Assembly (NCBI RefSeq): GCF_003612055.1
Contig: NZ_RAWB01000277.1
Coordinates: 1 to 13,030 of the forward strand
Direction of reading: 5' to 3'
DNA: 13,030 nucleotides
Origin: Corallococcus llansteffanensis
GTDB lineage: Bacteria > Myxococcota > Myxococcia > Myxococcales > Myxococcaceae
The notes beneath the pieces were generated by a model. The model did not search any database. It saw only the letters and a program-made list of their open reading frames with translations, and was not told where the DNA came from. Of the stretch, positions 1 through 13,030 are shown piece after piece. The number at the start of each line of letters is the position of its first letter. The first letter of the stretch is position 1. Position numbers and translations under genes: made by a program.

Positions 1-1
1 G

Positions 2-751: not shown

Positions 752-772
752 CGCCGGGCGTTGATGGGTGAC

Positions 773-791
773 GCTGGCAAGCGTTGCCAGC
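773..791 (+). terminator. Perfect 8-bp stem hairpin GCTGGCAA-gcg-TTGCCAGC, 22 nt downstream of the stop at 751; possible terminator or regulator site
   Basis: Read directly from the sequence. No U-tract follows. A near-identical palindrome GGCAAGCATTGCC recurs at 809-821. Confidence 0.3.
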
Positions 792-886
792 AGCTCCCGC
801 CCCCGGACGGCAAGCATTGCCGGGCGCTCCCTGTCAAAACCCCGTGGGCGGGGGGCTTCCGGGCCGGCACGTGGAGTGCACTGCGT

Positions 887-905
887 GTGAACGCAATCCG
901 TTCAC
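887..905 (+). promoter_or_regulatory. 7-bp inverted repeat GTGAACG-caatc-CGTTCAC immediately upstream of the RBS (AGGAG at 910-914) of the gene starting at 924; candidate operator
   Basis: Palindrome seen in the sequence. Position about 20-35 nt upstream of the start codon. Confidence 0.25.
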
Positions 906-923
906 CCCCAGGAGCGCTTCCCC

Positions 924-2729
924 ATGTCACAAAGACTCTCCCTCGGTGCCTTTGGCGCCCTGGCCTCGCTTTGCCTTGCCTCCAGCGCATGGGCCGGCGC
1001 GGTCGAAGACTTCAAGAAGGGCAAGGACGTCCAGCTCACCGCCGTCTCGGCGGTCATGGACGGCGAAATCTACTCCATCGCCGGCTTCCAGATTCCCAAG
1101 GCCGCCGACACGCTCAACATCACCCTCACGGGCGCGGACCTGGGGCTGAACTTCTCCCAGTCCGTCTTCCTCACGGGCGTGCAGAGCGGCAACTCCATCC
1201 TCTGGACGTTCAACCAGACGTTCAATCCCCCCATCGCCGTCGATGGGACGACCGTGGTCAACCACGTCTCCGGGTTGCTCATCGTCAACGCAACCCTGCT
1301 CGCGGGCACCCACCACCCGCTGTGCGGCTTCCAGCCCTGCCTTCGCGACGTGCTGCTCACGCACGCTCCCGGCTCCTGGATCCTCGTGGAGGGAGAGGGC
1401 GCGCTCGGCATCGATTTCTCGCGGCTCGTCATGGTCGACTACTTCCGCGCGCTGGGAGGAATCCCCCAGCCCGGCCTCTCCGCCTTCTACGTCCCGGGCA
1501 CGGCCAAGGTCTGCTCTTCGCCCGTCACGACCTACCTGCCGATGACCGCGTTCCTCACCGGGTTCGCGCCGTCAGGGGGCACGAAGGTCGACTTCGTGAG
1601 CGCCTACCCCAAGGGCCTCAAGGTTCCGCCCAACCTCACCGTCCCCGGCGGTCAATCTACCGCGTCGTTCAAGGCCGCGGTGGCGCCTGACTTCACCGGC
1701 CAGGTGAACGTGGTCGCGTCGTCCGCGGGCGCCATCTACTCCCGCCTGGTGCAGATCTTCCCCCAGGCGGACTGTGACAGCGGCGGCAACCGGAACGACC
1801 CGTTCGACGTGCGGGCCTACGTCCCGGACCTGCTCCTGGGATGCATCAACTGCTCGGAGCTCATCGACCTGGGCATCCGGGGCCAGGGCCTCCTCCGCGT
1901 GCAGGGCCTGGATGTGTACTTCAATGGCAGTCAGCTCCGCCGCCTCTCCAGCGTGTTCGACGTGGTCTCGGTGAGCGCCGTGGACATGACGGACAGCGGG
2001 CTCGTCACCGGCTCGATGGTCGTCCGCGCGGGAGAGGCTCCGGTGGCGTTCAGGGCCAGCCTGGAGGGCGGCCCCACCACCCCGATCGTACTGGGTGCCT
2101 TCACCCCCACCGCCATCACCGCGAGCGGCGTCGTGATTGGCAATCACACCTCACGCACCAGCAGCGTCGCCATGTATCACGATGGCAGGTCGCTGAAGGA
2201 GCTGCCCATCCCCGGCGCCACCCGCAGCCAGGCCCTCGCGGTGAGCGAGGCCGGACACATCGTGGGCACCTACGAGCGGGACGGTGACGTGCGGGCCTTC
2301 CTCTTCACGGAGGGCGTGTTCCGGACGCTTCCCCAGCTTTCGCGCGCCACCACGACGGTCCCCGTGGCGGTCAACAACCGGGGACAGGTGGTCGCCCACT
2401 CCGTGGACGCCACCGGTGCCGTGCTCGCGGTGGCCATCATCGAACCCAATGACACCTTCCACCTCCTCGGCGTGCCCTCCGGCTTCACCGGGCTCACCGC
2501 CACCTCCATCAATGCACGGGGTTGGGTCTCGGCGACCGCCACCTCCCACACCGGGACGAGCGGCTTCCTCTACACCCGCGAGGATGGATGGGTGGATCTC
2601 AACCGCCGGCTCTCTCCGGCCGGCAGCGTGGTGGTGACGGACGCCCTGCGCATCACGGATGCGGATCAGGTGCTGGTGCACGGGACCGCCAACGGCAACC
2701 GCGCGCTCTACCTGCTCACCCTTCCCTGA
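924..2729 (+). CDS. Secreted 601-aa protein with N-terminal signal peptide and C-terminal degenerate ~45-aa repeats resembling the HAF extracellular repeat family
   Basis: ATG at 924 with AGGAG 9 nt upstream. N-terminus 'MSQRLSLGAFGALASLCLASSAWAGA' is a signal peptide with an AWA-G cleavage site. Repeats of the form '…IVGTYERDGDVRAFLFTEGVFRTL…NNRGQVVAHS…' and '…ARGWVSAT…SGFLYTREDGWVDL'. GC3-rich codon usage. Confidence 0.8.
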   Translation: MSQRLSLGAFGALASLCLASSAWAGAVEDFKKGKDVQLTAVSAVMDGEIYSIAGFQIPKAADTLNITLTGADLGLNFSQSVFLTGVQSGNSILWTFNQTFNPPIAVDGTTVVNHVSGLLIVNATLLAGTHHPLCGFQPCLRDVLLTHAPGSWILVEGEGALGIDFSRLVMVDYFRALGGIPQPGLSAFYVPGTAKVCSSPVTTYLPMTAFLTGFAPSGGTKVDFVSAYPKGLKVPPNLTVPGGQSTASFKAAVAPDFTGQVNVVASSAGAIYSRLVQIFPQADCDSGGNRNDPFDVRAYVPDLLLGCINCSELIDLGIRGQGLLRVQGLDVYFNGSQLRRLSSVFDVVSVSAVDMTDSGLVTGSMVVRAGEAPVAFRASLEGGPTTPIVLGAFTPTAITASGVVIGNHTSRTSSVAMYHDGRSLKELPIPGATRSQALAVSEAGHIVGTYERDGDVRAFLFTEGVFRTLPQLSRATTTVPVAVNNRGQVVAHSVDATGAVLAVAIIEPNDTFHLLGVPSGFTGLTATSINARGWVSATATSHTGTSGFLYTREDGWVDLNRRLSPAGSVVVTDALRITDADQVLVHGTANGNRALYLLTLP

Positions 2730-2766
2730 CCCACCTCCCTGCCCACACCCTCAAAGGATTTCCATC

Positions 2767-3519
2767 ATGATGAAGCACAAGAACAAACTCCTGCTCATGG
2801 CGGTCGTGTTCACCCTGTTCCAGGGTTGTGCGAGCTGCCTGCAGGAACCCTGCGTCCCCGGCATCAAGTTCCCGGAGCCCGGGTCCTGTCCCCTCAAGGG
2901 ACATCCCCAGGGCTCGTCCGGAGGAAAGTGCAACAACTTCATCGGCAACTTCGGTTGCGATGATCCGGACCACACGTGTGTCTCCAACACCTGCATTCCT
3001 TGCGGCCAGCCCGGCTCGGTCTGCTGCGAGCATCAGGGGTGCGACGGCATGGCGACGTGCGTGAAGCCCAAGGAGGACCACACCTTTTCCGTCTGCTCCA
3101 ATGAGTGCGTCCAGGTGGGCGACAGCTGCTGCACGAACAACCAGTGCGGCTCCGGCATGGTGTGCAACGCCAACCTCAAGCAATGCGTGCCGGCGAACGA
3201 GCCCACGTGCGGAATGGGCCCCACCCTCTTCGCGCTCGGGGTGATCTCCGACAACACGAAGTGCGGCGACGTGATCTTCATCAAGGAAGCCAGCCTGCAG
3301 GCCGCGAAGCAGTGCGTCCAACCCCAGGTCCAGGCCGCCGGGACGCACTTCGCCCCGGACAACACGCCGCTGCAGGAGTTCACCTTCTGCAACTCCGGCT
3401 CGGGGATCGACCCTTCGGCGACCGTGACCGTGGCGGCGTTCTCCTCAACCGATGCGGCGACGTGCGCCCACAACCTGTGCACCAACTGCGCGAGCACGGC
3501 TCCCGGCCCCTGTCCGTAG
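2767..3519 (+). CDS. Cysteine-rich lipoprotein (~250 aa) with duplicated CC-x3-[GQ]-C-x(1-2)-G-x(2-3)-C modules
   Basis: ATG ATG at 2767 with AAGGA at 2753-2757. 'MMKHKNKLLLMAVVFTLFQGC' contains a lipobox LFQG-C. About 30 Cys residues. Repeated blocks 'GSVCCEHQGCDGMATC' and 'GDSCCTNNQCGSGMVC'. It lies 37 nt after the upstream gene, consistent with an operon. Confidence 0.75.
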   Translation: MMKHKNKLLLMAVVFTLFQGCASCLQEPCVPGIKFPEPGSCPLKGHPQGSSGGKCNNFIGNFGCDDPDHTCVSNTCIPCGQPGSVCCEHQGCDGMATCVKPKEDHTFSVCSNECVQVGDSCCTNNQCGSGMVCNANLKQCVPANEPTCGMGPTLFALGVISDNTKCGDVIFIKEASLQAAKQCVQPQVQAAGTHFAPDNTPLQEFTFCNSGSGIDPSATVTVAAFSSTDAATCAHNLCTNCASTAPGPCP

Positions 3520-3532
3520 CCGCGGGCCCATG

Positions 3533-3574
3533 AAAAAAGCCCGGTCGGCCCTCTGGGAAAGAGGGCCGCCGGGC
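3533..3574 (-). terminator. Intrinsic terminator for the minus-strand gene 3604..5247: 14-bp stem with a 1-nt bulge and a 7-nt loop, followed on the minus strand by a U6 tract; also lies 3' of the plus-strand gene
   Basis: aaaaaa-GCCCGGtCGGCCCTC-tgggaaa-GAGGGCCGCCGGGC read from the sequence. The A6 on the plus strand gives U6 after the stem on the minus-strand transcript. Confidence 0.7.
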
Positions 3575-3603
3575 GAGCTCACAAGCGTGGGAGGCGGGGA
3601 CGA

Positions 3604-5247
3604 CTACCCGTTGCGGCGCACCATCGCGACGTCGTAGCGGCGGTCCGTCACGTAGCCCTCGGCGGCCTTGCCGGGGCGGGTCATCGCGCCCGTCTTCTCA
3701 TCCACGTAGAAGCGGTTGTTGGGGTTGGTGTCCTTGCCCTTGCTCGCGTTGGTCGTCCCCGGGTCGTGGAACGTGTAGTAGGTGCGGCCCTTGTCGTCGA
3801 CGCCGCGGCCCGTGATGGTCACGAAGTGGTCCGTGAGCCCGTCCGCGTTGTACTTCGCGTCCTTGTGGCTGACGCCCACCACCACCGGCTTGCCGGCGTC
3901 CAGCTGCTGGTCGATGTACTTGCGACCCTCGGCGGCCTTCTTGGAGTTCACCGAGAGCTGGCCGGTGCTGTTCTCGCTGGTGCCCACCTGGATGCGGCTG
4001 TCCGGGCCCGTCACGTTCGCGCCCACCTTGCCGGCCATCGCCTTCGCGGCGTCGAAGCACGCGGTCTTGCTGGGGGTGAAGCCGTGGCCGCCCTCGAACT
4101 GGCTGTAGTACGGCACCTTCACGTGCACCGCGGGGCCCGACTTGGACGGCGCCACCGTCTGCGTGTCGTTGAGGTCCACTTCCGTGGTGGGCTTCTGCGA
4201 GTTGGCGCCCGTCGTGTTGCTCGTGGCCGGCTTCGTGTTGCTCGTGGCCGGCTTCGTGCCGCCCGTCGTGTTGCTCGTGGCCGGCTTCGTGTCTGCCGTC
4301 GTGGTACCCGGGGTCGTGGTGCCGCCCGCCTTCTCCTTCTTGAGCAGCGCGAGCGCGTCCTTCACCTCGGACTTGAAGCGGTTGGCCACGCCCTCCTGCA
4401 CGCTCTTGGAGTTGCTGGAGAAGTGCACCAGCGTGCCGCTGGAGTTGGTGCGGCCGCGCTCGGCGTAGATGTCCTTGATGAGCTGCTCGTCGCTCACCTT
4501 GGAGGGGTCGCGGCCGGCCAGCGCCTTCTTGAAGATGTCATCCGCCGCGCCCGGCCCGTGCTGCACGGACGTGGACCAGGCCACGTCGCGCAGCGCCGCG
4601 GACCGCGTGTCCAGGTCGATGCCCGTCGCCTTCTTGATGTTGGCGGCGCCCACGTCGTAGTGCGTGGCCTTGATGTAGTCGTGCTGCGCCTTGTCGAAGC
4701 CCTTGGGGTCCTTCGCCGCGAGCTGCTTCCACGCGTTGGAGAACGCCTCCGAGCCCGGCTTGCTGCCCGACAGCGCCGCGTGGAACTCCGGGTTGCTCTT
4801 CTTCAGCGAGTTCACGAACGACTGCGCGGACCCGTTCGCCGACGCGAACTGGTAGGAGCCGTACGACACGCCGCCGTGGTCGCCCTTGCCCGTGGACACC
4901 GTGCCGGGGCCACGCGCCTCGTACTTGCGGCTCAGCCCGCCCAGCTCGCCGCCACCCGCCGGAGCCGTCGTCTGCTTCGTGGTGTCCGTCGCCTTCGTCC
5001 CGCCCGTGTTGGACGTCGCCGGCTTGGTGGTGTTGGTGGCCGGCTTCGTGCTCGTGCCACGCGGGGGCTTCGTGTCGAAGCCGTCCGGGATGCGCAGCGA
5101 CTGGCCCGCGCGGATGCGGTCCGGGTCCTTGATGTTGTTGGCCTTGGCCAGCGCCGCCACCGTCGTGTCGTTGCGCTTCGCGATCGCGGAGAGGGTGTCG
5201 CCGGAACGGACGCGGAGGCTGGAGACGGTCATCGAAGGCACCTTCAT
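3604..5247 (-). CDS. Multidomain putative peptidoglycan hydrolase: N-terminal LysM domain, Thr-rich linkers, a central lysozyme-like (GH108-like?) domain, and a C-terminal papain-fold Cys peptidase (Peptidase_C39_2 / YvpB-like). No signal peptide
   Basis: LysM: 'SLRVRSGDTLSAIAKRNDTTVAALAKANNIKDPDRIRAGQSLRIP'. Central domain: 'GDHGGVSYGSYQF…FDKAQHDYIKATHYD', resembling the D-x-GG-x-T-x-YG muramidase motif. C-terminal 'VPYYSQ…KTACFDAA…DHFVTITG' carries a catalytic Cys/His pair. An alternative start at the in-frame ATG 5232 (Met6) has an AAGGTG SD-like sequence 7 nt upstream. The antisense ORF 3766..5295 is shadow. Confidence 0.85.
   Translation of the reverse strand: MKVPSMTVSSLRVRSGDTLSAIAKRNDTTVAALAKANNIKDPDRIRAGQSLRIPDGFDTKPPRGTSTKPATNTTKPATSNTGGTKATDTTKQTTAPAGGGELGGLSRKYEARGPGTVSTGKGDHGGVSYGSYQFASANGSAQSFVNSLKKSNPEFHAALSGSKPGSEAFSNAWKQLAAKDPKGFDKAQHDYIKATHYDVGAANIKKATGIDLDTRSAALRDVAWSTSVQHGPGAADDIFKKALAGRDPSKVSDEQLIKDIYAERGRTNSSGTLVHFSSNSKSVQEGVANRFKSEVKDALALLKKEKAGGTTTPGTTTADTKPATSNTTGGTKPATSNTKPATSNTTGANSQKPTTEVDLNDTQTVAPSKSGPAVHVKVPYYSQFEGGHGFTPSKTACFDAAKAMAGKVGANVTGPDSRIQVGTSENSTGQLSVNSKKAAEGRKYIDQQLDAGKPVVVGVSHKDAKYNADGLTDHFVTITGRGVDDKGRTYYTFHDPGTTNASKGKDTNPNNRFYVDEKTGAMTRPGKAAEGYVTDRRYDVAMVRRNG
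4213..4290 (-). repeat. In-frame tandem 21-nt repeat (three copies of CGTGTTGCTCGTGGCCGGCTT at 4213, 4234 and 4267) encoding KPATSNT linker repeats on the minus strand. A second Thr/Pro-rich linker region lies at about 4960-5060
   Basis: Perfect 21-mer copies read directly from the sequence. Translation of the minus strand gives TKPATSNTKPATSNT. Confidence 0.65.
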
Positions 5248-5424
5248 GTCGGGCCGCGAACAACGGGGGTCGCGGACGTGATTGGATTGCCGTGATTATC
5301 GACAGGCAATGAAGGCAGTTTCTCATTCTCAGTCACAATCGTGTCAAACCAGTGATTCCAGTAACTTCAGTTTCGGCGGATCAATCCGCTGAGACTAGAG
5401 AACCCGCCCAGGAGGCCCAATCGG
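5248..5424. promoter_or_regulatory. Divergent intergenic promoter region, locally AT-richer, between the LysM-peptidase gene (minus) and the secreted protein gene (plus). Contains GTGATT x3, the inverted repeat ATTGCC-n13-GGCAAT and the palindrome CGGATCAATCCG (5377-5388)
   Basis: Drop in GC compared with the flanks. Divergent gene starts on both sides. AGGAGG RBS at 5410-5415 for the plus-strand gene. Confidence 0.4.
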
Positions 5425-6456
5425 ATGTCCAGGATCCAACCGGATTTCAAAATTTTGCCATTGCTGTTCGCCCTTGGCCTCACGGGCGCGGTCCCGAATG
5501 CCTCGGCTCAGGGGCCTGGAGGACTCACGGGCGTCTATTCCAAGGATGGCGGGGCGCTGGCCATCGTCGAGGGGAGCAACGAGACGCTGATCCACTACTC
5601 GGCCGGCTTTCCGCAGGGCGACAGCGTGGGCACGTGCGACTGCGCGCTGGTCGTTCAACGCAAGACGTCAACGCGCTGGACGCTGAACGTGGCCGGGGAG
5701 AAGGAGCCCTGGACGCTGCGCGTCGAACCCAAGCAGCTCGTCCTGGAGACGAAGGCGCCCACCTGCTGCGGCGCGGGCTACCCGGGCAAGGACACCTTCA
5801 CGCGGGGCACGCCCCAGCCGCTGACCGTCTGCAAGGTGAAGGCATCCAAGGCGGGCTTCTTCGCGTCGGATGAAGCCAATACGCCGCGCAAGACGTTCGT
5901 GGTGTCTGGCGACGCGGTGGAGGCCTACCTGGACCCCGTGGAGCCGGACCTCATCCCCGCGCGCTTCCAGGGGCCCCAGAAGGCCACGGCGGGGCTGCTC
6001 AAGCGCGCGGACCTGGACTGCGAGGCGGCCAAGGCCCCCACGGCGAGCAAGGCGCCCGTGGCGGCCGACAAGCTCCAGCCCTTCGCGGGCACATGGGTGG
6101 AATTGACGCGCAAGGGCAAGGGCTTCGTCATCCTCAAGCCCTGCTCCGCCAAGAACCGCAGCTTCACCGTCAAGCCCGCGACGGGCGAGGTGGAGGTGCA
6201 GCTGGGACAGGAGGCGACGACACTGAAGGCGACGTCGCTGGAGCCCGGCAAGGGCGCCGGGGCCTGGGTGCTGGGGCTCACGTCCACGGAGGGCAAGCCG
6301 GAGGCGCTCCAGTGGAAGACGGCCGACGCGGCGAAGGGCACCGTGTCGGTGACGAGCCCGGACCTCTTCTCCCAGAGCCATGACTACGTGCGTCAGGAGA
6401 AGCAGTCCGCGTTCCCGGTGAAGCAGGAGACCGGCTGCGACGAGTACGAGCAGTAG
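5425..6456 (+). CDS. Secreted hypothetical protein (343 aa) with signal peptide
   Basis: ATG at 5425 with AGGAGG 9 nt upstream. N-terminus 'MSRIQPDFKILPLLFALGLTGAVPNASAQG' is a signal peptide. GC3-rich coding frame. The antisense ORFs 5668..6381 and 5925..6341 are shadows. Confidence 0.75.
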   Translation: MSRIQPDFKILPLLFALGLTGAVPNASAQGPGGLTGVYSKDGGALAIVEGSNETLIHYSAGFPQGDSVGTCDCALVVQRKTSTRWTLNVAGEKEPWTLRVEPKQLVLETKAPTCCGAGYPGKDTFTRGTPQPLTVCKVKASKAGFFASDEANTPRKTFVVSGDAVEAYLDPVEPDLIPARFQGPQKATAGLLKRADLDCEAAKAPTASKAPVAADKLQPFAGTWVELTRKGKGFVILKPCSAKNRSFTVKPATGEVEVQLGQEATTLKATSLEPGKGAGAWVLGLTSTEGKPEALQWKTADAAKGTVSVTSPDLFSQSHDYVRQEKQSAFPVKQETGCDEYEQ

Positions 6457-6460
6457 CGCG

Positions 6461-7372
6461 TCACGGGTCCGGGCGCTCCGCCCCCGGGTTCAGCCGGGGC
6501 GCGCCTCCCGGGCCCAGCAGGCCCTGCATGGCGTCGAAGAGGTTGAGGTTGGAGCCGCTGGGGAGGAAGACGACCTTGTCCAGGCCTCCCACGACGGCGG
6601 CCTGGGCCTGGGCCGCGACGGCCTTCACGAAGTTCTCCCCGCCCCCCAGCGCCTCCACGCGCTGGCGGAACTGCGAGGCCTCCACCTCGGCGAGCCGGGA
6701 CTGGCGCTCCACCTCCAGGTCGTTCAGGCGCTGCTGCCGCTCCAGGGCCATCTGGGTCGTCAGGCGCTCGCGCTCCAGCTCCGCCTCGGAGCGGATGCGG
6801 GAGGCGCGGGCGTCGGACTCGGCGCGGGCCAGGGCCTCCTCGCTCTCCACGCGGGCCTTCTCCAGCGACACGACGGTGACGGACTCGTCGGGCACGTAGC
6901 GACCGGGCCCGCGCACCAGCCACTCGTCGCCGGCCTCGCGGCGGCGGGGCGCGTCCGGGGCGCGTGCGTCCGTGAAGGCGGTGAGCGCGCGCAGGCGCAG
7001 CGCTTCCGACACGCCCAGCACGTACTCCGGGACGATGTCGCCCTCCAGCTCCTCGCCCGGATACAGCGGGAACACCTTGGGGCCGACGCGGACCTCGCGG
7101 TCCCCCACCGCCAGCCGGGCCTGGCCGAAGTCGTCCAGCACCACCTGGCCGTCCACGCGCACCACGGGGTTGCGCACCACGCACCAGTTGCCGGCGCCCA
7201 CCTCCACCATCCGCTCCTTGGCGACGAGCGTGAGGTGCGCCTCCAGGGTCAACACCCGGGGCCCCACCTCCATCAGCACCACCCCCCGGTTGGCGTCCTC
7301 GATGTATGCGTATTCGCGATTCTTCAGGGAGATGCGCTGGATGGCTTCGGTGCTGGGGAGGGCGGACGGCAC
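6461..7372 (-). CDS. Major vault protein (MVP)-like protein, 303 aa: MVP repeats 1 to ~3 fused through a short coiled coil to an MVP cap-helix/cap-ring-like C-terminus; repeats 4-9 and the shoulder domain are absent
   Basis: GTG start at 7372 (first in-frame start; no SD). The N-terminus aligns with human MVP repeats 1-3 and the C-terminus with the MVP cap-helix end (details in findings). The other-frame ORF 6393..7379 is Gly/Pro/Arg-rich shadow. GC about 75 %. Confidence 0.8.
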   Translation of the reverse strand: MPSALPSTEAIQRISLKNREYAYIEDANRGVVLMEVGPRVLTLEAHLTLVAKERMVEVGAGNWCVVRNPVVRVDGQVVLDDFGQARLAVGDREVRVGPKVFPLYPGEELEGDIVPEYVLGVSEALRLRALTAFTDARAPDAPRRREAGDEWLVRGPGRYVPDESVTVVSLEKARVESEEALARAESDARASRIRSEAELERERLTTQMALERQQRLNDLEVERQSRLAEVEASQFRQRVEALGGGENFVKAVAAQAQAAVVGGLDKVVFLPSGSNLNLFDAMQGLLGPGGAPRLNPGAERPDP

Positions 7373-7467
7373 GGGGCACCTGCTCGGGGCGGAGGGTTCA
7401 CCCGCGAGTCATTGCCAGCCGCGTGCCGCGCCCTGCCCGTCCTGAAACGATCCTGCGATGTTCCGAC

Positions 7468-7519
7468 CTGGAACAGCCGCCCGCTCCATTCCGGAGCGGG
7501 CGGCGGTCCAGACTGGCGC
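7468..7519. repeat. 52-nt imperfect hairpin repeat, copy A (CTGGAACAGCCGCCCGCTCCATTCCGGAGCGGGCGGCGGTCCAGACTGGCGC), immediately 3' of the minus-strand gene ending at 7525; terminator-like (11-bp stem, 5-nt loop), no U-tract
   Basis: 50/52 identical to copy B at 8824-8875. Core CCGCCCGCTCC/GGAGCGGGCGG stem plus outer CTGGA/TCCAG arms, read from the sequence. Confidence 0.6.
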
Positions 7520-7524
7520 GCCTT

Positions 7525-8700
7525 TCAGTCCTTGTGGATCCACACGAGCATGCGCGTCGCGTCATAGAGCACGAACCTGGCGTCCCGAAGGAAGGAATTG
7601 CCAACCTGCGCCGCCGGGGTGGTCCAGGTAGCAATCCCCCCACACTTGAGGCTTGCCGGCGTCGGTGTCTTGATGAACAGGTGGGCATCTCCATAGGAGC
7701 GCACGGGCTGATCGTCGGTGCCCATGAACTCCAGCCGCGCGCCTTCGGGAAGGAGAAACTCCTGGACCGTGTCGTTGGCCCCTCCGCACGCACTCAGCTG
7801 GCTGGGCGGCGTCCCGACCGGAACGGTTTTGACTCCCGCCTTGGTCAACATCTCAAGCAACGCCTTGTTGCCATAGAGGCTGTGCCTGACGATTGAATCA
7901 TCAAGCCCTGAGTCCAGCTGGCCTATGAAACGCGCCCCGCCCATCCGCAATGGAACGGTAGGCACGTTCGGCACAAGCTCACTGGCACCCGCGCCTGAAC
8001 GGAGCCGGGTCATGTTGAACAACCCCGAATCGTTGATCGCGAAGTAGCCGCGGGTTGTGAGCGGCCGCAACCCGGCACTCTTGAGCTGGTCGTCATCGCA
8101 CAAGGATCCAGAGCGATTCCGGAAGACAAGCGAGCGCTCATAGTCGAGCGCGAAGGTATTGAGCACCAGGAAGTCAGCCCCCACGATACCCGCCTGTCGC
8201 CCGACTGTCGGGTCTACTTTGTTGCCCGAGTGGTCAGCTTGTGCAAGGCACACGTTTCCCCATCCACCAAAGAAATCAAAGTTCCCAAAGCGGCAAAACG
8301 TGCCCGCGACTCCTGACTGGCAGAGGGTTTGATCTCGAGCGCAGTTATCAACAATCACCTCCGGCTCGTTCTGTCCGAACGCTTGGTGCGCCCGGTCAAT
8401 CGTGCTGTACGTCGAACCGAAGTCCAGCAGGAACCTACCCGTGAGCGGAGCGCCCGAGGGTGCCGACAACTTGACCTCAACAAATGGCCATTGGCCAGAC
8501 ACCCAGAGAGGTCTGCGCTCCCCCAGACACGCATCCAAGCTGGAGAACGGCCGACTGCTGGCGACTTCTGGCTGAGCAGGGGCGGCTTGTTCAGGTTTGT
8601 GGGCACAGGCAGGCAACAGCCAAAGCGCCAGCACTGCCGCGCCCAGGCGCCAAAGCAGCCCAGCGTCGAGACTGGCATACCCCTGTTTTTCGGCAGACAT
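7525..8700 (-). CDS. Lipoprotein (391 aa). Two D-x-G motifs ('LLDFGSTYS' and 'IGQLDSGLDDS') about 170 residues apart suggest a pepsin-like (A1) aspartic peptidase fold; function tentative
   Basis: ATG at 8700. 'LALWLLPAC' lipobox. Clearly lower GC (about 55-63 % per 60-nt line) than the neighbouring genes (about 70-78 %), with a less GC-biased third position. The spacing of the two Asp motifs resembles pepsin D32/D215. Confidence 0.7.
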   Translation of the reverse strand: MSAEKQGYASLDAGLLWRLGAAVLALWLLPACAHKPEQAAPAQPEVASSRPFSSLDACLGERRPLWVSGQWPFVEVKLSAPSGAPLTGRFLLDFGSTYSTIDRAHQAFGQNEPEVIVDNCARDQTLCQSGVAGTFCRFGNFDFFGGWGNVCLAQADHSGNKVDPTVGRQAGIVGADFLVLNTFALDYERSLVFRNRSGSLCDDDQLKSAGLRPLTTRGYFAINDSGLFNMTRLRSGAGASELVPNVPTVPLRMGGARFIGQLDSGLDDSIVRHSLYGNKALLEMLTKAGVKTVPVGTPPSQLSACGGANDTVQEFLLPEGARLEFMGTDDQPVRSYGDAHLFIKTPTPASLKCGGIATWTTPAAQVGNSFLRDARFVLYDATRMLVWIHKD

Positions 8701-8823
8701 GTACAGTCATCCCCCAGATGGTGATTGCGGCCAACACCCTAACACGAACACCGCGGCGGGGACGCTTGGTGCCCTCCCCGGTGAAGTGCAGTTCCTGGAA
8801 GCGGGCCCAGGAAGCCAGGGATG

Positions 8824-8875
8824 CTGGAACAGCCGCCCGCTCCATTCCGGCACGGGCGGCGGTCCAGACTGGCGC
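8824..8875. repeat. 52-nt hairpin repeat, copy B (…CATTCCGGCACGGGCGG…), immediately 3' of the GDSL lipase gene ending at 8886 and about 120 nt 5' of the low-GC lipoprotein gene
   Basis: Direct repeat of copy A in the same orientation. The two mismatches sit in the loop-proximal stem, leaving a 7-bp core stem plus outer arms. Confidence 0.6.
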
Positions 8876-8885
8876 ACCGGGGTGA

Positions 8886-9779
8886 CTACTGAGCGCTCCA
8901 CGCCTCCACGGTCCACTCGTCGGCGGAGAGGCCGGCGCTGAAGCCGAGGGCGTCGGAGACGAGGTCATGGCCGTAGTCCGCGAAGATGCGGTGGCTGTAG
9001 CTCGTGGGGTGGATCTCATCCCAGAACAGGTACGTGTCCGGGTTGACAGCCTTGCCCTTGCTGGTGCCGGTGACGTTCGTCAGGCCGTACGCGGACGGCG
9101 ACGCGATGATGGCGTTGAACTGGTTGTAGGCGTTCATCCCGATGAAGGTGACGGACGGGAAGTCCTGGCGCAGCTTCGTCAGCGATTGCGCCCACAGGGT
9201 GTTGAACTGGCTGGTGGGAGGAGCGAGCACGGTGGTGCCCAGGCCGCCCGGGACGGACAGCGCCGCCGGCGTCTTGTTCAAGGGCGGCATGTTCACCCAC
9301 AGGATGCGCTTCGCGCCCGCCGCGACGAGCTTGCGGATCTGCCCATTGATGTTGGAGACGGCCGTCGTCGCCGCGGCCTTGATGCCAGCCGAGTCGAACG
9401 GGTTCGCCTGGGCCTTGTAGTTGATGTCATTGCCCCCGCCCCAGAGGACATACAGCGCCGTGGAGGACGCCGTCGGGTGGGCCGCCAGGTAGCTGTTCAC
9501 CTGGCTCGTCATCCCGCTGGTGACGGCGCCGCCCCGGGCATAGTTCGTGCCGCCGCTGTCGGACGCCGTCAGGGGCAGGCCCAGCTGCGTAGCGAGCTGC
9601 TTCACCCAGGTGCCGGCAATCTGGCTGGAGGGATTCGTCGTCGGACCGCTGGTGGCGATGCCGTTGTTGCCGTTGTCACTCAGGCTGTCGCCAAACACGA
9701 CGATGCTGCTCTGCGCGCCAGCGTGGAACGGGAGGAGGACGGCCAAGATGGCCGCGAGCAACAGGAAGGGATGCTTCAT
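8886..9779 (-). CDS. Secreted GDSL/SGNH-family lipase/esterase (copy 1)
   Basis: ATG at 9779 (GAGGAG RBS upstream). An in-frame GTG at 9794 is the track start, but the ATG matches the paralog alignment. 'MKHPFLLLAAILAVLLPFHAGAQS' is a signal peptide. SGNH blocks: 'VVFGDSLSDNGN', 'YARGGA', 'WGGGNDI', 'DEIHPT'. The start ATG overlaps the upstream gene's stop TGA as ATGA. Confidence 0.85.
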   Translation of the reverse strand: MKHPFLLLAAILAVLLPFHAGAQSSIVVFGDSLSDNGNNGIATSGPTTNPSSQIAGTWVKQLATQLGLPLTASDSGGTNYARGGAVTSGMTSQVNSYLAAHPTASSTALYVLWGGGNDINYKAQANPFDSAGIKAAATTAVSNINGQIRKLVAAGAKRILWVNMPPLNKTPAALSVPGGLGTTVLAPPTSQFNTLWAQSLTKLRQDFPSVTFIGMNAYNQFNAIIASPSAYGLTNVTGTSKGKAVNPDTYLFWDEIHPTSYSHRIFADYGHDLVSDALGFSAGLSADEWTVEAWSAQ

Positions 9780-10672
9780 GGCTGCGCGCTCCACTCCTCA
9801 ACGGTCCACTCGTCGGCGGTGAAGCCGGCGCTGAAACCGAAGGCATCGGAGACGAGGTCGTACGCGTAGTTCGCGAAGATGCGGTGGCTGTAGCTCGTCG
9901 GGTGGATTTCATCCCAGAACAGGTACTTGTCCGGGTTGACCGCCTTGCCCTTGCAGGTGCCGGTGACGTTCGTCAGCCCATACGCGGACGGGGCCGCGAT
10001 GATGGCGTTGAACTTGTTGTAGGCGTTCATCCCGATGAACGTGACGGACGGGAACTCGCCGCGCAGCTTCGTCAGGGACTGGGACCAGAGCGTGTTGAAC
10101 TGGGAGCTGGGCGGCGAAAGCACGCTGCTGCCCAGGCCGAACGGGATGGACAGCGCCGCGGGCGTCTTGTGGAGCGGCGGCATGTTCACCCACAGGACGC
10201 GCTTCGCGCCCGCGGCGACGAGCTTGCGGATCTGCCCTTCGATGTTGGAGACGGCCTTGGTCGCCACGGCCTTGATGCCAGCCGAATCGAACGGGTTGTC
10301 CATCGCCTTGTGATGGATGTCGTTGCCGCCGCCCCAGAGGACATACAGCGCCGTGGACGACGCCGTCGGGTGGGCGGTGAGGTAGGCGTTGACCTGGTTC
10401 GTCATGTCGGCCGTGACCGAGCCGCCCTGCGCGTAGTTCGTGCCTCCCTCGTCAGAGGCCACGAGCGGCAGGTCCAGCTGGTCCGCGAGCTGTTTCACCC
10501 AGGGACCGGAGATCTGGCTGGAGGGATTCGTCGTCGGACCGCTCGTCGCGGTGCTGTACTTGCCGTTGTCACTCAGGCTGTCGCCAAACGCGACGATACT
10601 GCTCTGCGCGCCAGCGTGGAACGGGAGGAGGACCGCCAGGGCGGCCGCGAACGACAGGAAGGGATGTTTCAA
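9776..10672 (-). CDS. Secreted GDSL/SGNH-family lipase/esterase (copy 2, tandem paralog). Start uncertain: TTG at 10672 (aligned with the copy 1 start) or GTG at 10720
   Basis: Protein about 80 % identical to copy 1, with the same SGNH blocks ('VAFGDSLSDNGK', 'WGGGNDI', 'DEIHPT'). 'LKHPFLSFAAALAVLLPFHAGAQS' aligns with the copy 1 signal peptide. GGAG lies 8 nt upstream of the TTG. No in-frame ATG near the N-terminus. Confidence 0.8.
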   Translation of the reverse strand: MKHPFLSFAAALAVLLPFHAGAQSSIVAFGDSLSDNGKYSTATSGPTTNPSSQISGPWVKQLADQLDLPLVASDEGGTNYAQGGSVTADMTNQVNAYLTAHPTASSTALYVLWGGGNDIHHKAMDNPFDSAGIKAVATKAVSNIEGQIRKLVAAGAKRVLWVNMPPLHKTPAALSIPFGLGSSVLSPPSSQFNTLWSQSLTKLRGEFPSVTFIGMNAYNKFNAIIAAPSAYGLTNVTGTCKGKAVNPDKYLFWDEIHPTSYSHRIFANYAYDLVSDAFGFSAGFTADEWTVEEWSAQP

Positions 10673-10784
10673 GGAGGGCTCCGAGAGGGGGGAACACAGG
10701 CGTCTGCCGCACTGTGTCACCGATCTCGGAGCTTTTCCAGGTTTCTCTACGCTTCCATGTTTTATTCCGGATGTTTCAGCGGGC
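10673..10784 (-). promoter_or_regulatory. Putative promoter/leader of the tandem GDSL operon (AT-richer 'ttccatgttttattccggatgtttcagc') and 3' region of the upstream minus-strand gene
   Basis: Local AT enrichment between the stop at 10785 and the GDSL start. Inference only. Confidence 0.25.
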
Positions 10785-11474
10785 TCAGCCCCGCGCGGCG
10801 CGGGCGTCGCGGCCCTTGGCGCGGGCGGCCTTGGAGAGCAGGTCGGAGCCCTTCTCCTCGCCCTTCATCCACGCCTTCATCGCGGGGACGACCTGCTTGC
10901 TCCACGCGCGGCCGCCGCGCACGGCGAGGAAGGCCGTCACCAGCGCGTCCACCAGGGCGGAGAGCTGTTCGGTCAGCTCCAGGCGCTCGGTGAGCTGATC
11001 ATCCTCCTCCTCGGTCATCAGGGCGGGCAGCTTGGCGGCGCGGATGTCCAGGAACTCCGCATCCAGGGTGAGCTCGAACTCGCGCTCGCCGTGGGAGATG
11101 CGCAGCCGCGCCTGGGACACAAGCAGCCCCCGGTCCAGCGAGTGCCGCACGTTCTCCGAGTACGGAGCCAGCGTGCCGCGCGCGCTCAACTCCGTGACGT
11201 CACCGGCCACGCCGCGCAGCACCACCTTGCCCAGGTAGAGCGCCGTGACGGACGCGCCGTCGTGCTCCACCAGCGGGTCGCCGGACTCCGTGCGCCACAG
11301 CAGCCACGTCAGGAACTCGCGCCCCAGGTAGGCCCGGCCGCGCAGGAGCTGTTCGCGCGCCTTGCCCTGTTCGACCTCGGCCTCGTCCTTGACCTCTTCG
11401 GTCGAGCCACCATCCACGCCCACGTCGCCCCGGGCGAACGCCGCCTCGATCCGCGCCTGCTCACCCTTCGCCAT
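10785..11474 (-). CDS. Protein resembling the C-terminal half of recombination-associated protein RdgC (229 aa), with an acidic N-terminal extension
   Basis: ATG at 11474 with GGAGGACAGCC upstream, a strong SD. 'LGREFLTWLLWRTESGDPL…GKVVLRG…LRISHGEREFELTLDAEFLDIRAAKLP…DDQLTERLELTEQLSALVDALVTAFL' parallels E. coli RdgC 'LTLTEWVRSGSAPQGF…GGVIRAKK…[26 protein letters not shown]…[30 protein letters not shown]' (E. coli sequence recalled from memory). Overlaps the upstream ORF by 14 nt in a different frame. Confidence 0.6.
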   Translation of the reverse strand: MAKGEQARIEAAFARGDVGVDGGSTEEVKDEAEVEQGKAREQLLRGRAYLGREFLTWLLWRTESGDPLVEHDGASVTALYLGKVVLRGVAGDVTELSARGTLAPYSENVRHSLDRGLLVSQARLRISHGEREFELTLDAEFLDIRAAKLPALMTEEEDDQLTERLELTEQLSALVDALVTAFLAVRGGRAWSKQVVPAMKAWMKGEEKGSDLLSKAARAKGRDARAARG

Positions 11475-12111
11475 GGCTGTCCTCCACCGAAGCCGTCGCC
11501 GGCAGGTCCATTCCGATGAGCTCCGCCGTGGGGCCCAGGGCCTTGTCGTCGATGCCCGCGCGCTGCGCCATCGAGGCGGGCGTGATGCCAATCACCTTCA
11601 CCGCCAGGGCGCCTTCCAGGGCCACGGAGATCTCATCCACCGTCTTGCGGGACGCGGCCCAGATCTGCACCTGCTGCGTCTTCAGGTTCCACGTCACGTC
11701 CAGCACGCTGGTGCGCGGCACGGCCCGCTGCCGGAGCAGCTGCTTCAACTCCGCGCGCTGCTTGTTCTTCTCCGCGCGCGCGGGCGGGCGGCTGTTCTCC
11801 TTGGCGAAGGCGGAGGACCACTTGTCCAGCTCCGCCTTCATCATGGAGGCGGGGACCTTCAGGGTGTCGATGCGGAAGGCGAAGAGGGCGTACTCGCCAT
11901 AGAAGAGGTTGCTGGTGGAGAAGTCGGAGGCCTCCGCGTTCTCCAGCTCCACGAAACCGGCCGCGCGCTCATCTTCGGAGCGGCGGTCGATGGGCTCGAA
12001 CGCATGGGACTTGAGTCCCTTGGTCAGCCAGCGCTTCACGTCGGACGGCGCATCCTTGGCCGGCTCGGTCCGGAAGCGCGAAAAGGTCACGGCACCACGT
12101 AGGACAGGCAT
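11461..12111 (-). CDS. rdgC: RdgC-family (recombination-associated) protein, N-terminal two-thirds (216 aa)
   Basis: ATG at 12111 (no SD). 'MPVLRGAVTFSRFR…LKSHAFEPI…FAFRIDTLKVPASMMKAELDKW…RAEKNKQRAELKQLLRQRAVPRTSVLDVTWNLKTQQVQIWAASRKTVDEISVALEGALAVKVIGITP' aligns with E. coli RdgC residues about 1-180 ('MLWFKNLMVYRL…[23 protein letters not shown]…[69 protein letters not shown]'). The upstream in-frame extension to 12783 is Arg/Pro/Gly-rich non-coding shadow. Confidence 0.6.
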   Translation of the reverse strand: MPVLRGAVTFSRFRTEPAKDAPSDVKRWLTKGLKSHAFEPIDRRSEDERAAGFVELENAEASDFSTSNLFYGEYALFAFRIDTLKVPASMMKAELDKWSSAFAKENSRPPARAEKNKQRAELKQLLRQRAVPRTSVLDVTWNLKTQQVQIWAASRKTVDEISVALEGALAVKVIGITPASMAQRAGIDDKALGPTAELIGMDLPATASVEDSHGEG

Positions 12112-12324
12112 GGGGCGCGGGAGGATGGGGGGCCGGTGCCGTGGCGTCAAGGCACTCGGGGTGGCTGGACGCACTCGCGTGGGAATAGCCGGCGCACCCG
12201 GCCGTTGCGCGCCCGTCGTCCCTGCCCGGTCGCCCTCCGGGCCGTCTTCCCGTGCACGCCCGCCCGTCCCCGCCGGCCGGAAACCATGACACTCCCAGGC
12301 ACGCGACATACGGTGGCCGCCGCC
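12112..12324. promoter_or_regulatory. Divergent intergenic region between the rdgC-like gene (minus) and the PBP4-like gene (plus)
   Basis: Bounded by two divergent start codons. Very GC-rich, with no recognisable SD for either gene. Confidence 0.3.
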
Positions 12325-13030
12325 ATGCGCCGAGCCCTCCTCCCCGTCAGCGTCTCCACCGCCACCGTCCTGCTGTCCGCCTGCGCCCACGTGCCTTCCG
12401 GGCCGGAGGCCCCCCCGGGGAGCACCCTGCCCGGCGTCACCCGCACCCTGCTGGAGACGCTGGAGGCGGACGGCGCGCTCGCCGGCGCGTATGTGGTGGA
12501 CGCGCGCACCGGCGAGCCCCTCTTCAAGCACCGGGAGAACGTGCGGCTCCTGCCCGCGTCCACGATGAAGGTGGTGTCCACCTCCGCGGCGCTGTCCGCG
12601 TTGGGGGCGGACTTCCGCTTCGTGACGCCGGTGTCGCTGGAGGGTTCGCAGGTGGGCGGCCTGTTCCTGGGCGACATCGTGGCGCAGGCCTCCGGCGACC
12701 CGTCCCTGGGCTCGTGGCGCTTCCCGGAGACGGCGCTCGCCTGCGACCGCATCGCGGAGGCGTTCCAGGCGCGCGGCATCCACCAGTGGCGCGGCAACGT
12801 GCGCATCGCCGGCACCGACGGCGTGGACGGCCTCATGGGGCCGGGCTGGGCCTGGGATGACGCCGCCTATGCCTACAGCGCGGCGCCCACCCCGTTCGTC
12901 TTCCGCGAGAACGTGGTGGACCTGGCCCTGGCCCGCGCCCCCGGCTCCACCTGCGCGGACGCGCCCGCCGTCCAGTGGACCCCCACCTTCGCCACGCTGT
13001 CCGCCGTGGTGCGCGTGGACGTCAACGCGG
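12325..13030 (+). CDS. dacB: D-alanyl-D-alanine carboxypeptidase/endopeptidase, PBP4 (peptidase S13) family lipoprotein; 3' end lies outside the window
   Basis: 'MRRALLPVSVSTATVLLSAC' is a lipoprotein signal peptide with an LSAC lipobox. 'LLPASTMKVVSTSAALSALG' contains the SxxK active-site motif in the PBP4-typical context (E. coli DacB 'LPASTQK'). The frame is open to the window end. An alternative in-frame ATG lies at 12286. ORFs 12252..12860(+) and 12147..12836(-) are shadows. Confidence 0.7.
   Translation, partial: MRRALLPVSVSTATVLLSACAHVPSGPEAPPGSTLPGVTRTLLETLEADGALAGAYVVDARTGEPLFKHRENVRLLPASTMKVVSTSAALSALGADFRFVTPVSLEGSQVGGLFLGDIVAQASGDPSLGSWRFPETALACDRIAEAFQARGIHQWRGNVRIAGTDGVDGLMGPGWAWDDAAYAYSAAPTPFVFRENVVDLALARAPGSTCADAPAVQWTPTFATLSAVVRVDVNA

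What the first reader, a model, noticed from the sequence alone, without database searches (positions are those of the whole stretch)
6461..7372. Compact 'mini' major vault protein: MVP repeats 1-3 fused directly to a cap-helix/cap-ring C-terminus
Seen in the sequence: the 303-aa minus-strand ORF (GTG start) aligns at both ends with eukaryotic MVP. N-terminal side: '…EAIQRISLKNREYAYIEDANRGVVLMEVGPRVL…NWCVVRNPVVRVDGQVVLDDFGQARLAVGDREVRVGPKVFPLYPGEELEGDIVPEYVLG…ALRLRALTAFTDARAPD…EAGDEWLVRGPGRYVPDESVTVV'. This tracks human MVP '…[31 protein letters not shown]…[59 protein letters not shown]…[41 protein letters not shown]' (repeats 1-3). C-terminal side: 'DLEVERQSRLAEVEASQFRQRVEALGGG…VVGGLDKVVFLPSGSNLNLFDAMQGLLGPG' matches the end of the MVP cap-helix/cap-ring, '[28 protein letters not shown]…[28 protein letters not shown]'. 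The human sequence is from memory. Between the two matched regions there is only a ~70-residue Glu/Arg/Ala-rich coiled coil. Repeats 4-9 and the SPFH-like shoulder domain are missing. Established knowledge: in vaults, repeats 1-2 form the waist contact between the two half-shells and the cap helix forms the coiled-coil barrel. Inference: this protein keeps exactly the two self-assembly interfaces and could form a miniature vault-like or ring assembly. Its GC (~75 %) is typical of the host genome, so it is not a recent eukaryotic contaminant. Bacterial MVP-like database hits exist, but a 2-3-repeat + cap architecture is to my knowledge undescribed.
Basis: partly seen in the sequence, partly recalled or inferred. 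Interest (0 to 1): 0.9.

Follow-up and report, generated by a model that had tools for sequence, protein, structure and literature searches.

The report
Internally deleted bacterial vault protein gene
The 303-residue "mini vault protein" is real, but it is a one-off copy of the normal ~760-residue myxobacterial vault-protein gene that recently lost its middle 452 codons by slippage between two short repeats, so it is most likely a decaying gene, not a new kind of miniature vault.

Summary
ORF 6461..7372(-) encodes 303 aa. Residues 5-180 match rat MVP repeats R1-R3, and residues 170-290 match the last ~75 residues of the cap-helix plus the cap-ring (PDB phmmer E~1e-53; Pfam Vault_2 and Vault; no shoulder hit).

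The "compact architecture" reading does not hold. The window is a whole contig of Corallococcus llansteffanensis. In 20 of 21 related genomes (Corallococcus, Archangium, Hyalangium, Vitiosangium) the ortholog is a single ORF of 756-765 aa with extra repeats, the shoulder and a full cap-helix. The window is collinear with Corallococcus sp. CA053C at 91-95% DNA identity, and it lacks exactly 1356 bp (residues 170-621).

The junction lies in a direct repeat matching at 17 of 18 nt. This repeat encodes LEKARV at both the R3/R4 border and inside the cap-helix, so the in-frame outcome is a by-product of the repeat. The close relative C. sicarius carries an independent 5' deletion plus a frameshift in the same gene.

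An exhaustive search of 1.84 billion representative proteins found no conserved short family. Low dN/dS on the window branch (5 syn : 2 nonsyn) is uninformative, because the dead C. sicarius remnant shows the same pattern (9:2). Verdict: a recent lineage-specific deletion allele of a known bacterial MVP homolog. Low interest.

The parts
6461..7372 (-). 303-aa ORF with a GTG start and its stop at 6461-6463. It is an internally deleted allele of the myxobacterial MVP homolog.
   Evidence: Searches give the ORF and its translation. It is 100% identical to an NCBI hypothetical protein of Corallococcus llansteffanensis, with one member sequence and one contig of 13030 bp. A GTG start is the norm in orthologs.
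6866..7372 (-). Residues 1-169, which are MVP repeats R1-R3 and are complete. Pfam Vault_2 covers residues 55-113 (7034-7210) and Vault covers residues 117-162 (6887-7024).
   Evidence: Pfam; query 9-179 aligns to rat MVP 5-171; window residues 1-169 correspond to CA053C residues 1-169.
6848..6866 (-). Deletion junction. This is the single hybrid copy of the direct repeat CTGGAGAAGGCCCGCGTG (LEKARV). The left flank comes from the R3/R4 border and the right flank comes from the cap-helix.
   Evidence: window 6849-6866 aligns to both L002 ~9507-9524 and L002 ~10863-10880. Searches give the base-level alignment with both parental sites in CA053C and C. coralloides.
6638..6865 (-). Residues 170-245, the distal ~76 residues of the cap-helix. 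The proximal ~80 residues are missing.
   Evidence: query 170-245 aligns to rat 730-805; this segment corresponds to CA053C residues 622 onward; the AF2 helix 170-241 is the only confident part of the model.
6464..6637 (-). Residues 246-303, the cap-ring region and the variable C-terminal tail.
   Evidence: query up to residue 290 aligns to rat 853. The GGGENFVKAVAAQAQAAVVGGLDKVVF block is conserved in all orthologs.
7373..7467 (-). Upstream region of the gene (5' UTR or promoter region). It is retained and collinear with relatives.
   Evidence: window 6849-7522 aligns to L002 9524-8851 at 94.8%. No sigma-70 consensus was found by the simple scan.
7468..8878 (-). Neighbouring lineage-specific insertion. 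It is 1301 bp of lower-GC DNA (7523-8823) carrying a 391-aa lipoprotein-like ORF (7525-8700), bracketed by 55-nt direct repeats (7468-7522 and 8824-8878). Each repeat holds a GC-rich hairpin, which is a duplicate of the hairpin downstream of the GDSL lipase gene.
   Evidence: absent from L002, L005, L007, L022. (repeats). (no family or PDB hit). (GC 0.61, GC3 0.71, no homolog in the related loci).

Best explanation
The ORF is a recent, lineage-specific, in-frame deletion allele of the conserved ~760-aa myxobacterial major-vault-protein homolog. The ancestral gene held two copies of an 18-nt sequence, identical at 17 positions, that encodes LEKARV. One copy sat at the R3/R4 domain border and the other inside the cap-helix, 1356 bp apart and in the same reading frame. 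Replication slippage or short-homology recombination between the two copies removed 452 codons. The lost segment holds the remaining repeats (second Vault_2/Vault pair, Vault_4, Vault_3), the SPFH-like shoulder and the proximal half of the cap-helix. The deletion is in-frame only because both repeat copies encode the same peptide. Promoter-proximal DNA, the GTG start and the stop codon are intact, so a 33-kDa product consisting of R1-R3, a half cap-helix and the cap-ring may still be made (inference). It lacks the shoulder and half of the helix that laterally zips MVP chains, so it most likely cannot build the normal shell (inference). The gene is best read as an early stage of loss, as in the close relative C. 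sicarius.
For: 1. Full-length orthologs: the genome scan found 21 loci. In 20 of them the gene is one uninterrupted ORF of 756-765 aa. The Pfam architecture is Vault_2 x2, Vault x2, Vault_4, Vault_3 and MVP_shoulder, followed by the helix.
2. Synteny: the window is collinear with Corallococcus sp. CA053C over 765..13030 at 91-95% identity.
3. Exact lesion: window residues 1-169 correspond to CA053C residues 1-169, and window residues 170-290 correspond to CA053C residues 622-742. That leaves 452 codons (1356 bp) missing.
4. Junction: it lies inside the 18-nt repeat, matching at 17 positions, that is present at both parental sites.
5. Independent loss nearby: C. sicarius has a 1324-bp deletion that removes the upstream region and about 416 codons. 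It also has a 1-nt insertion frameshift.
6. Singleton status: one member sequence on one contig. The junction pattern is absent from the metagenome collection. In the exhaustive phmmer search the best hit, at 76% identity, is the 762-aa P0010. Only two other short proteins combine N- and C-terminal hits, both single and unrelated to each other.
7. The Corallococcus full-length homolog was already listed as a bacterial MVP homolog (PMC3762200; 10.1101/872010).
Against: The reading frame, the start codon and the upstream 150 bp are intact. The retained parts show few amino-acid changes against CA053C (omega 0.08; window branch 5 syn: 2 nonsyn). That would also fit a product still under selection. 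However, the demonstrably dead C. sicarius remnant gives 9 syn: 2 nonsyn, so this signal only says the lesions are young. A second in-frame internal deletion that also keeps both termini exists in a soil metagenome contig (P0002/L023). This leaves a small chance that such forms are tolerated or favoured. Reads were not available, so the assembly could not be verified.
Confidence: 0.8

Rival explanations
1. An evolved, functional mini-MVP. Under this reading, the protein keeps the N-terminal waist contact (R1-R2) and the C-terminal cap contacts and assembles into a small ring or miniature vault-like cage.
For: The ORF is intact, with the usual GTG start and a conserved upstream region. R3 is complete, and the deletion ends exactly at a domain border. 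There are few nonsynonymous changes on the window branch. A second, different in-frame deletion keeping both ends exists in L023/P0002.
Against: It is a singleton, with no second genome, metagenome contig or representative cluster showing this architecture. The in-frame outcome is forced by the peptide-encoding repeat. C. sicarius has destroyed the same gene, and its dead remnant has the same low nonsynonymous count. The protein lacks the shoulder and half of the cap-helix. From published work on rat MVP, recalled and not checked here, the cap-helix drives lateral MVP-MVP association.
Confidence: 0.07
2. An assembly artefact. Under this reading, the real genome holds the full-length gene and the assembler joined the two LEKARV repeat copies.
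For: The junction falls exactly in a repeat. The source is a draft short-read assembly in small contigs, and the window is a whole 13-kb contig. No independent assembly of the strain was found. There is an odd length coincidence with the neighbouring insertion.
Against: The repeat is only 17-18 nt and imperfect. From my own knowledge, that is shorter than the smallest k-mer normally used by short-read assemblers such as SPAdes (k of 21 or more), so it should not collapse a graph. The flanks are otherwise cleanly collinear for 6 kb on each side. C. sicarius shows that real deletions hit this gene in this clade.
Confidence: 0.08
3. The short form is ancestral, and the long form arose by insertion.
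For: None found.
Against: Twenty genomes from at least four genera carry the long form. Eukaryotic MVPs have the same domain order. The window's closest relative at 91-95% DNA identity has the long form.
Confidence: 0.01

Closest known systems
Myxobacterial full-length MVP homolog (e.g. Corallococcus coralloides H8MNI3, listed by Daly et al. 2013, PMC3762200; Myxococcales MVP homologs in Sokolskyi 2019, bioRxiv 10.1101/872010)
   Same: It is the orthologous, syntenic gene. The retained 290 residues are 94-96% identical to those of Corallococcus relatives. It has the same GTG start, the same R1-R3 and the same cap-ring block.
   Different: It lacks residues 170-621 of the ortholog. That segment holds four further repeat domains, the MVP_shoulder (423-539) and the first ~80 residues of the cap-helix.
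Eukaryotic major vault protein (rat MVP; PDB 4v60, 4hl8, 2qzv)
   Same: R1-R3 align over 170 residues at E 1e-27, and the end of the cap-helix plus the cap-ring align over 120 residues at E 1e-10.
   Different: Rat MVP has 9 repeats, a shoulder and a 156-residue cap-helix (domain limits from Tanaka et al. 2009, recalled). This protein has 3 repeats, no shoulder and ~76 helix residues. No vault particle, vault RNA, TEP1 or PARP4 partner is known or was looked for in this bacterium.
C. sicarius MVP pseudogene (L022 8364-9516; protein P0009)
   Same: It is the same gene in the same three-species clade, also hit by a ~1.3-kb deletion.
   Different: There the deletion removes the 5' end and the start codon, and a frameshift follows, so it is unambiguously dead. 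In the window the deletion is internal and in-frame.
P0002 / L023 (soil metagenome, 413 aa)
   Same: It also joins the repeat region just after R3 to the C-terminal part of the protein in frame.
   Different: The breakpoints differ (1041 bp deleted, with a 4-nt filler and no long repeat). It keeps the whole cap-helix. It sits on a 1.5-kb contig of uncertain assembly quality.

Membership tests
Major vault protein (MVP) family | N-terminal MVP repeat domains (Pfam Vault / Vault_2) above the gathering threshold | tested here: met
   Vault_2 scores 83.3 bits (cutoff 23.6) and Vault scores 59.3 bits (cutoff 27). R1-R3 align to solved rat MVP.
Major vault protein (MVP) family | SPFH-like shoulder domain (PF11978) | tested here: not met
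   There is no hit in the 303-aa protein. The domain is present at residues 423-539 of the ortholog.
Major vault protein (MVP) family | Full-length cap-helix (~155 residues) following the shoulder | tested here: not met
   Only residues 170-245 remain, matching rat 730-805. About 80 proximal residues are deleted.
Major vault protein (MVP) family | C-terminal cap-ring region | tested here: met
   Query residues 246-290 align to rat 806-853. The block is conserved in all orthologs.
Major vault protein (MVP) family | Self-assembly into a closed multimeric shell (39-mer half vaults) | not testable with these tools
   No multimer prediction or experiment was available. The monomer AF2 model with a 5-sequence alignment was poor (pLDDT 46.7).
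Myxobacterial MVP ortholog group (single-copy, syntenic) | Same genomic position and flanking genes as the full-length gene in relatives | tested here: met
   The window is collinear with L002 over 765-13030, and it shares the MVP-flanking segments with the other Corallococcus loci.
Decaying gene / deletion allele | Intact full-length orthologs in the nearest relatives, with the lesion confined to one lineage | tested here: met
   Twenty of 21 loci are full-length. The protein is a singleton, and the junction is absent from metagenomes.
Decaying gene / deletion allele | Lesion with a mutational signature (a deletion between short direct repeats) | tested here: met
   An 18-nt repeat, identical at 17 positions, is present at both parental sites, and a single hybrid copy sits at the junction.
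Decaying gene / deletion allele | Broken reading frame or lost start codon | tested here: not met
   The deletion is 452 codons and in-frame, and the GTG start and the stop are kept.
Decaying gene / deletion allele | Relaxed selection (raised dN/dS) after the lesion | tested here: inconclusive
   The window branch shows 5 syn: 2 nonsyn. The certainly dead C. sicarius remnant shows 9: 2. The branches are too short to discriminate.

The most novel reading that the evidence does not exclude
The in-frame deletion allele is expressed. Its 33-kDa product (R1-R3, distal cap-helix and cap-ring) still self-associates through the retained helix, ring and waist contacts into a small ring or cage, making it a natural minimal vault scaffold. 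In-frame internal deletions that keep both termini recur in myxobacterial MVP genes (window; P0002/L023), which could mean such forms are tolerated or useful.
Probability: 0.06. Interest if true: 0.6.

Novelty: new member of a known kind. Interest (0 to 1): 0.22.

Why it matters
As found, it matters little. It is a strain- or species-specific deletion allele of an already reported bacterial MVP homolog, so it should not be catalogued as a new protein architecture.

Two modest points are worth keeping. First, the full-length MVP homolog is conserved as a single-copy gene under strong purifying selection across Myxococcaceae and Archangiaceae (pairwise omega of about 0.03-0.2). Yet it has been hit by separate deletions in two of three closely related Corallococcus species, which suggests it is dispensable there. 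Second, the allele is a ready-made natural construct for asking which MVP parts suffice for assembly. It could be compared directly with the 759-aa CA053C protein.

Tried and rejected
Only helix 170-241 was confident. The model was too poor for a fold search, so it was not used. Fold assignment rests on the direct sequence match to solved MVP structures.
2. Looking up the exact protein in other assemblies, which could have verified the junction independently, found nothing on record.
3. A degenerate junction pattern scanned against metagenome contigs gave 0 hits.
4. I tested whether the 1301-bp insertion upstream is the displaced deleted segment, because both events measure 1356 bp. There is no similarity by blastn or tblastx, and the base composition differs. 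Rejected.
5. NCBIfam has no model for either the short or the full-length protein.
6. I tried dN/dS as a test of function. I rejected it as uninformative after the dead C. sicarius remnant gave the same low ratio.
7. My first alignment (A1) was distorted by frameshifted tails of P0003, P0009 and L001, so I rebuilt it as A2.
8. Literature searches found no description of natural or engineered R1-R3-plus-cap mini-MVPs in the held library.

Full report
OBSERVATION.
- Pfam finds Vault_2 at residues 55-113 (E 1.7e-23) and Vault at residues 117-162 (E 3.7e-16). It finds no MVP_shoulder, Vault_3 or Vault_4.
- phmmer against all PDB chain sequences gives rat and human major vault protein at E about 1e-53. 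Query 9-179 aligns to rat MVP 5-171, which is repeats R1-R3. Query 170-290 aligns to rat 730-853, which is the last ~75 residues of the cap-helix plus the cap-ring.
- One correction: the Glu/Arg/Ala-rich "linker" is itself the distal half of the cap-helix.
- GC3 of the ORF is 0.96, so it is native, high-GC bacterial DNA.

SOURCE AND RELATIVES. The protein is 100% identical to an NCBI "hypothetical protein" of Corallococcus llansteffanensis, and its only contig is 13030 bp long, so the window is that whole contig.
- The other hits in that search were telling. Several proteins carried Vault_3 plus MVP_shoulder and matched the query's C-terminal 40% at 85-98% identity. They read "...AEAQLEKARVESEEALARAE..." inside a long helix.
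- A scan of one genome per bacterial species returned 21 loci from Corallococcus, Archangium, Hyalangium, Vitiosangium and related MAGs.
- In 20 of them the gene is one uninterrupted ORF of 756-765 aa.
- The 759-aa ortholog of Corallococcus sp. CA053C (L002) has Vault_2 x2, Vault x2, Vault_4, Vault_3 and MVP_shoulder (423-539), followed by the helix and the ring.
- A GTG start is the rule in these orthologs.
- C. coralloides H8MNI3 was already listed as a bacterial MVP homolog by Daly et al. 2013 (PMC3762200). Myxococcales MVP homologs are discussed in bioRxiv 10.1101/872010.

THE LESION. BLASTN shows the window is collinear with L002 from 765 to 13030 at 91-95% identity. There are two exceptions.

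The first exception is the deletion.
- Window 6849-7522 aligns to L002 9524-8851, and window up to 6866 aligns to L002 from 10863 on. An 18-nt stretch of the window therefore aligns to both places.
- In the protein alignment, window residues 1-169 correspond to L002 1-169 and window residues 170-290 correspond to L002 622-742. That means 452 codons (1356 bp) are missing.
- At base level, L002 reads ...GTCGTGTCG CTGGAGAAGGCCCGTGTC CTCAAGGAG... at the R3/R4 border. It reads ...GAGGCACAG CTGGAGAAGGCCCGCGTG GAGAGCGAG... in the cap-helix. The window reads ...GTCGTGTCG CTGGAGAAGGCCCGCGTG GAGAGCGAG....
- So the deletion lies between two direct copies of a sequence identical at 17 of 18 nt, both encoding LEKARV in the same frame. 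This is the classical signature of slipped-strand or short-homology deletion.
- It also explains why the deletion is in-frame without invoking selection.
- The left breakpoint falls exactly at the end of R3, so R1-R3 stay whole.

The second exception is an insertion.
- The window carries a 1301-bp segment (7523-8823; GC 0.61) just upstream of the gene's own upstream region.
- It holds a 391-aa lipoprotein-like ORF with no family, PDB or locus homolog.
- It is flanked by 55-nt direct repeats that contain a GC-rich hairpin.
- The ~150 bp between the proximal hairpin and the MVP start is retained.

INDEPENDENT LOSS IN A CLOSE RELATIVE. C. sicarius (L022) is as close to the window as CA053C, at about 92% identity in the flanks.
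- It has a different lesion in the same gene. A 1324-bp deletion (L002 8926-10249) removes the upstream region, the start codon and about 416 codons. A 1-nt insertion then shifts the frame near "QQRL|N".
- In this three-species clade, one species therefore has the intact gene, one has an unambiguous pseudogene, and one (the window) has the in-frame deletion.

IS THERE A MINI-MVP FAMILY? No.
- The cluster holding the window protein has one sequence on one contig.
- An exhaustive phmmer search of 1.84 billion representatives gave 590 hits. The best, at 76% identity, is the 762-aa P0010.
- Among the 158 proteins retrieved, only three combine N-terminal repeat hits and cap hits within fewer than 690 residues. 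These are the query itself, P0002 (413 aa, from a 1.5-kb soil metagenome contig), and P0137 (a 225-aa protein whose C-terminal match stops inside the cap-helix region, with no cap-ring block).
- P0002/L023 is a different in-frame deletion of 1041 bp, with junction TACTGC|TGGA|TGCGC.
- A degenerate pattern for the window's junction found nothing in the metagenome collection.

SELECTION. Across intact ortholog pairs, omega is about 0.03-0.2, so the full-length gene is strongly constrained.
- Window versus CA053C over the retained 290 codons gives 22.5 synonymous and 5.5 nonsynonymous differences, for omega of 0.08.
- Polarised with outgroups, the window branch carries 5 synonymous and 2 nonsynonymous changes, A78V and V87L.
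- That could suggest continued constraint. However, the certainly dead C. sicarius remnant shows 9 synonymous and 2 nonsynonymous changes on its branch.
- The ratios therefore only say that both lesions are young.

MECHANISM (shown versus inferred).
- Shown: orthology and synteny with a full-length gene; the exact 1356-bp deletion and its repeat-bounded junction; singleton status; and an independent disruption in a close relative.
- Inferred: the event was replication slippage or short-homology recombination.
- Inferred: the product, if made, cannot form the normal shell, because it lacks the shoulder and half of the cap-helix. In rat MVP these mediate lateral chain-chain association; this is my recollection of van Zon et al. 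2002 and Tanaka et al. 2009, not checked here.
- Inferred: the gene is on its way to loss.
- Confidence that this is a lineage-specific deletion derivative and not an evolved architecture: about 0.8.

RIVALS.
- A functional mini-vault (about 0.07) is not excluded. The frame, the start codon and the upstream DNA are intact, and a second in-frame deletion exists elsewhere.
- An assembly artefact (about 0.08) cannot be excluded without reads. However, an imperfect 17-18-nt repeat is, to my knowledge, shorter than the k-mers used by short-read assemblers. The flanks are also cleanly collinear.
- The idea that the short form is ancestral is refuted by the distribution of the long form.

COMPARISON AND NOVELTY. 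The protein is a member of the MVP family by descent and by its repeat and cap-ring sequences. It fails two defining architectural features, the shoulder and the full cap-helix, because they were deleted. It is best filed as a new (defective or derived) allele of a known bacterial MVP homolog. It is not a new variant class. Interest is low (0.22). The residual value is as a natural construct for assembly experiments, and as evidence that MVP is dispensable in part of Corallococcus.

LIMITS.
- No reads, expression data or multimer modelling were available.
- The AF2 monomer model was poor (pLDDT 46.7 with a 5-sequence alignment) and was not used.
- The equality of the deletion length and the repeat spacing of the neighbouring insertion (both 1356 bp) is unexplained and is probably chance.

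Noticed in passing
window 7468-8878: A 1301-bp lower-GC insertion (GC 0.61; ORF GC3 0.71 against 0.96 for the MVP ORF) is absent from the closest relatives compared across this junction (L002, L005, L007, L022). It encodes a 391-aa protein with a lipoprotein-type signal (…LWLLPAC…) and has no Pfam, NCBIfam or PDB match. It is bracketed by 55-nt direct repeats (95% identical) that each hold a 15-bp GC-rich hairpin. It looks like a horizontally acquired gene inserted at a terminator-like hairpin that was duplicated in the process.
   Followed up: partly
window 6848-6866 versus 7468/8824: The MVP deletion (1356 bp) and the start-to-start spacing of the insertion's flanking repeats (1356 bp) are numerically identical. 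The locus length is therefore unchanged relative to Corallococcus sp. CA053C. The two DNA segments are unrelated, and no mechanism was found.
   Followed up: partly
L022 8364-9516 (Corallococcus sicarius): The MVP ortholog here is a pseudogene. A 1324-bp deletion removes the upstream region, the start codon and about 416 codons. There is also a 6-nt in-frame GGAGGC duplication and a 1-nt insertion frameshift in the cap-helix. NCBI nevertheless lists a 369-aa 'hypothetical protein' (P0009) from it.
   Followed up: yes
L023 174-1415 (JGI soil metagenome 3300005617; protein P0002): This is a second, different in-frame internal deletion of a myxobacterial MVP gene (1041 bp, 347 codons). It joins the start of R4 to the end of the shoulder with a 4-nt filler. 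The contig is only 1561 bp and is reported in 2 samples. It could be real or a chimeric assembly.
   Followed up: partly
L002 9001-11280 and orthologs in L003-L021: The full-length myxobacterial MVP homolog is 756-765 aa, about 100 residues shorter than eukaryotic MVP. It has fewer Pfam-detectable repeats than the nine of rat MVP, and a Pro/Ala-rich variable insert before Vault_3. It found one locus per genome in this scan, starts with GTG in most genomes, and is under strong purifying selection (pairwise omega about 0.03-0.2). Its function in bacteria is unknown.
   Followed up: partly
L001 1-2819 (ENA metagenome contig): Here the MVP ortholog is split into two called genes (449 aa and 500 aa, P0003) by a frameshift, and the 3' end reads through into nonsense. 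This looks like indel errors in the assembly and not biology.
   Followed up: no
window 8886-10720: Two tandem GDSL-lipase paralogs (302 and 314 aa, minus strand) lie upstream of the MVP locus. They are about 86-88% identical to each other's counterparts in relatives, judging by crosswise BLAST hits.
   Followed up: no
window 3604-5247: A 547-aa minus-strand ORF has an N-terminal LysM domain and a T6SS VgrG3-like C-terminal (peptidoglycan hydrolase-type) domain (E 2.8e-53).
   Followed up: no
window 1-764: The first ~760 bp of the contig, including ORF 4-747 with no Pfam hit, have no counterpart in L002 or any other related locus, although L002 extends further. This is possibly another indel, or a repeat that ended the contig.
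   Followed up: no
P0137 (225 aa, from the representative search): This is another short protein in which an MVP repeat region runs directly into cap-helix sequence. It has no cap-ring block and is of unknown origin. It may be an exon-skipped eukaryotic gene model.
   Followed up: no
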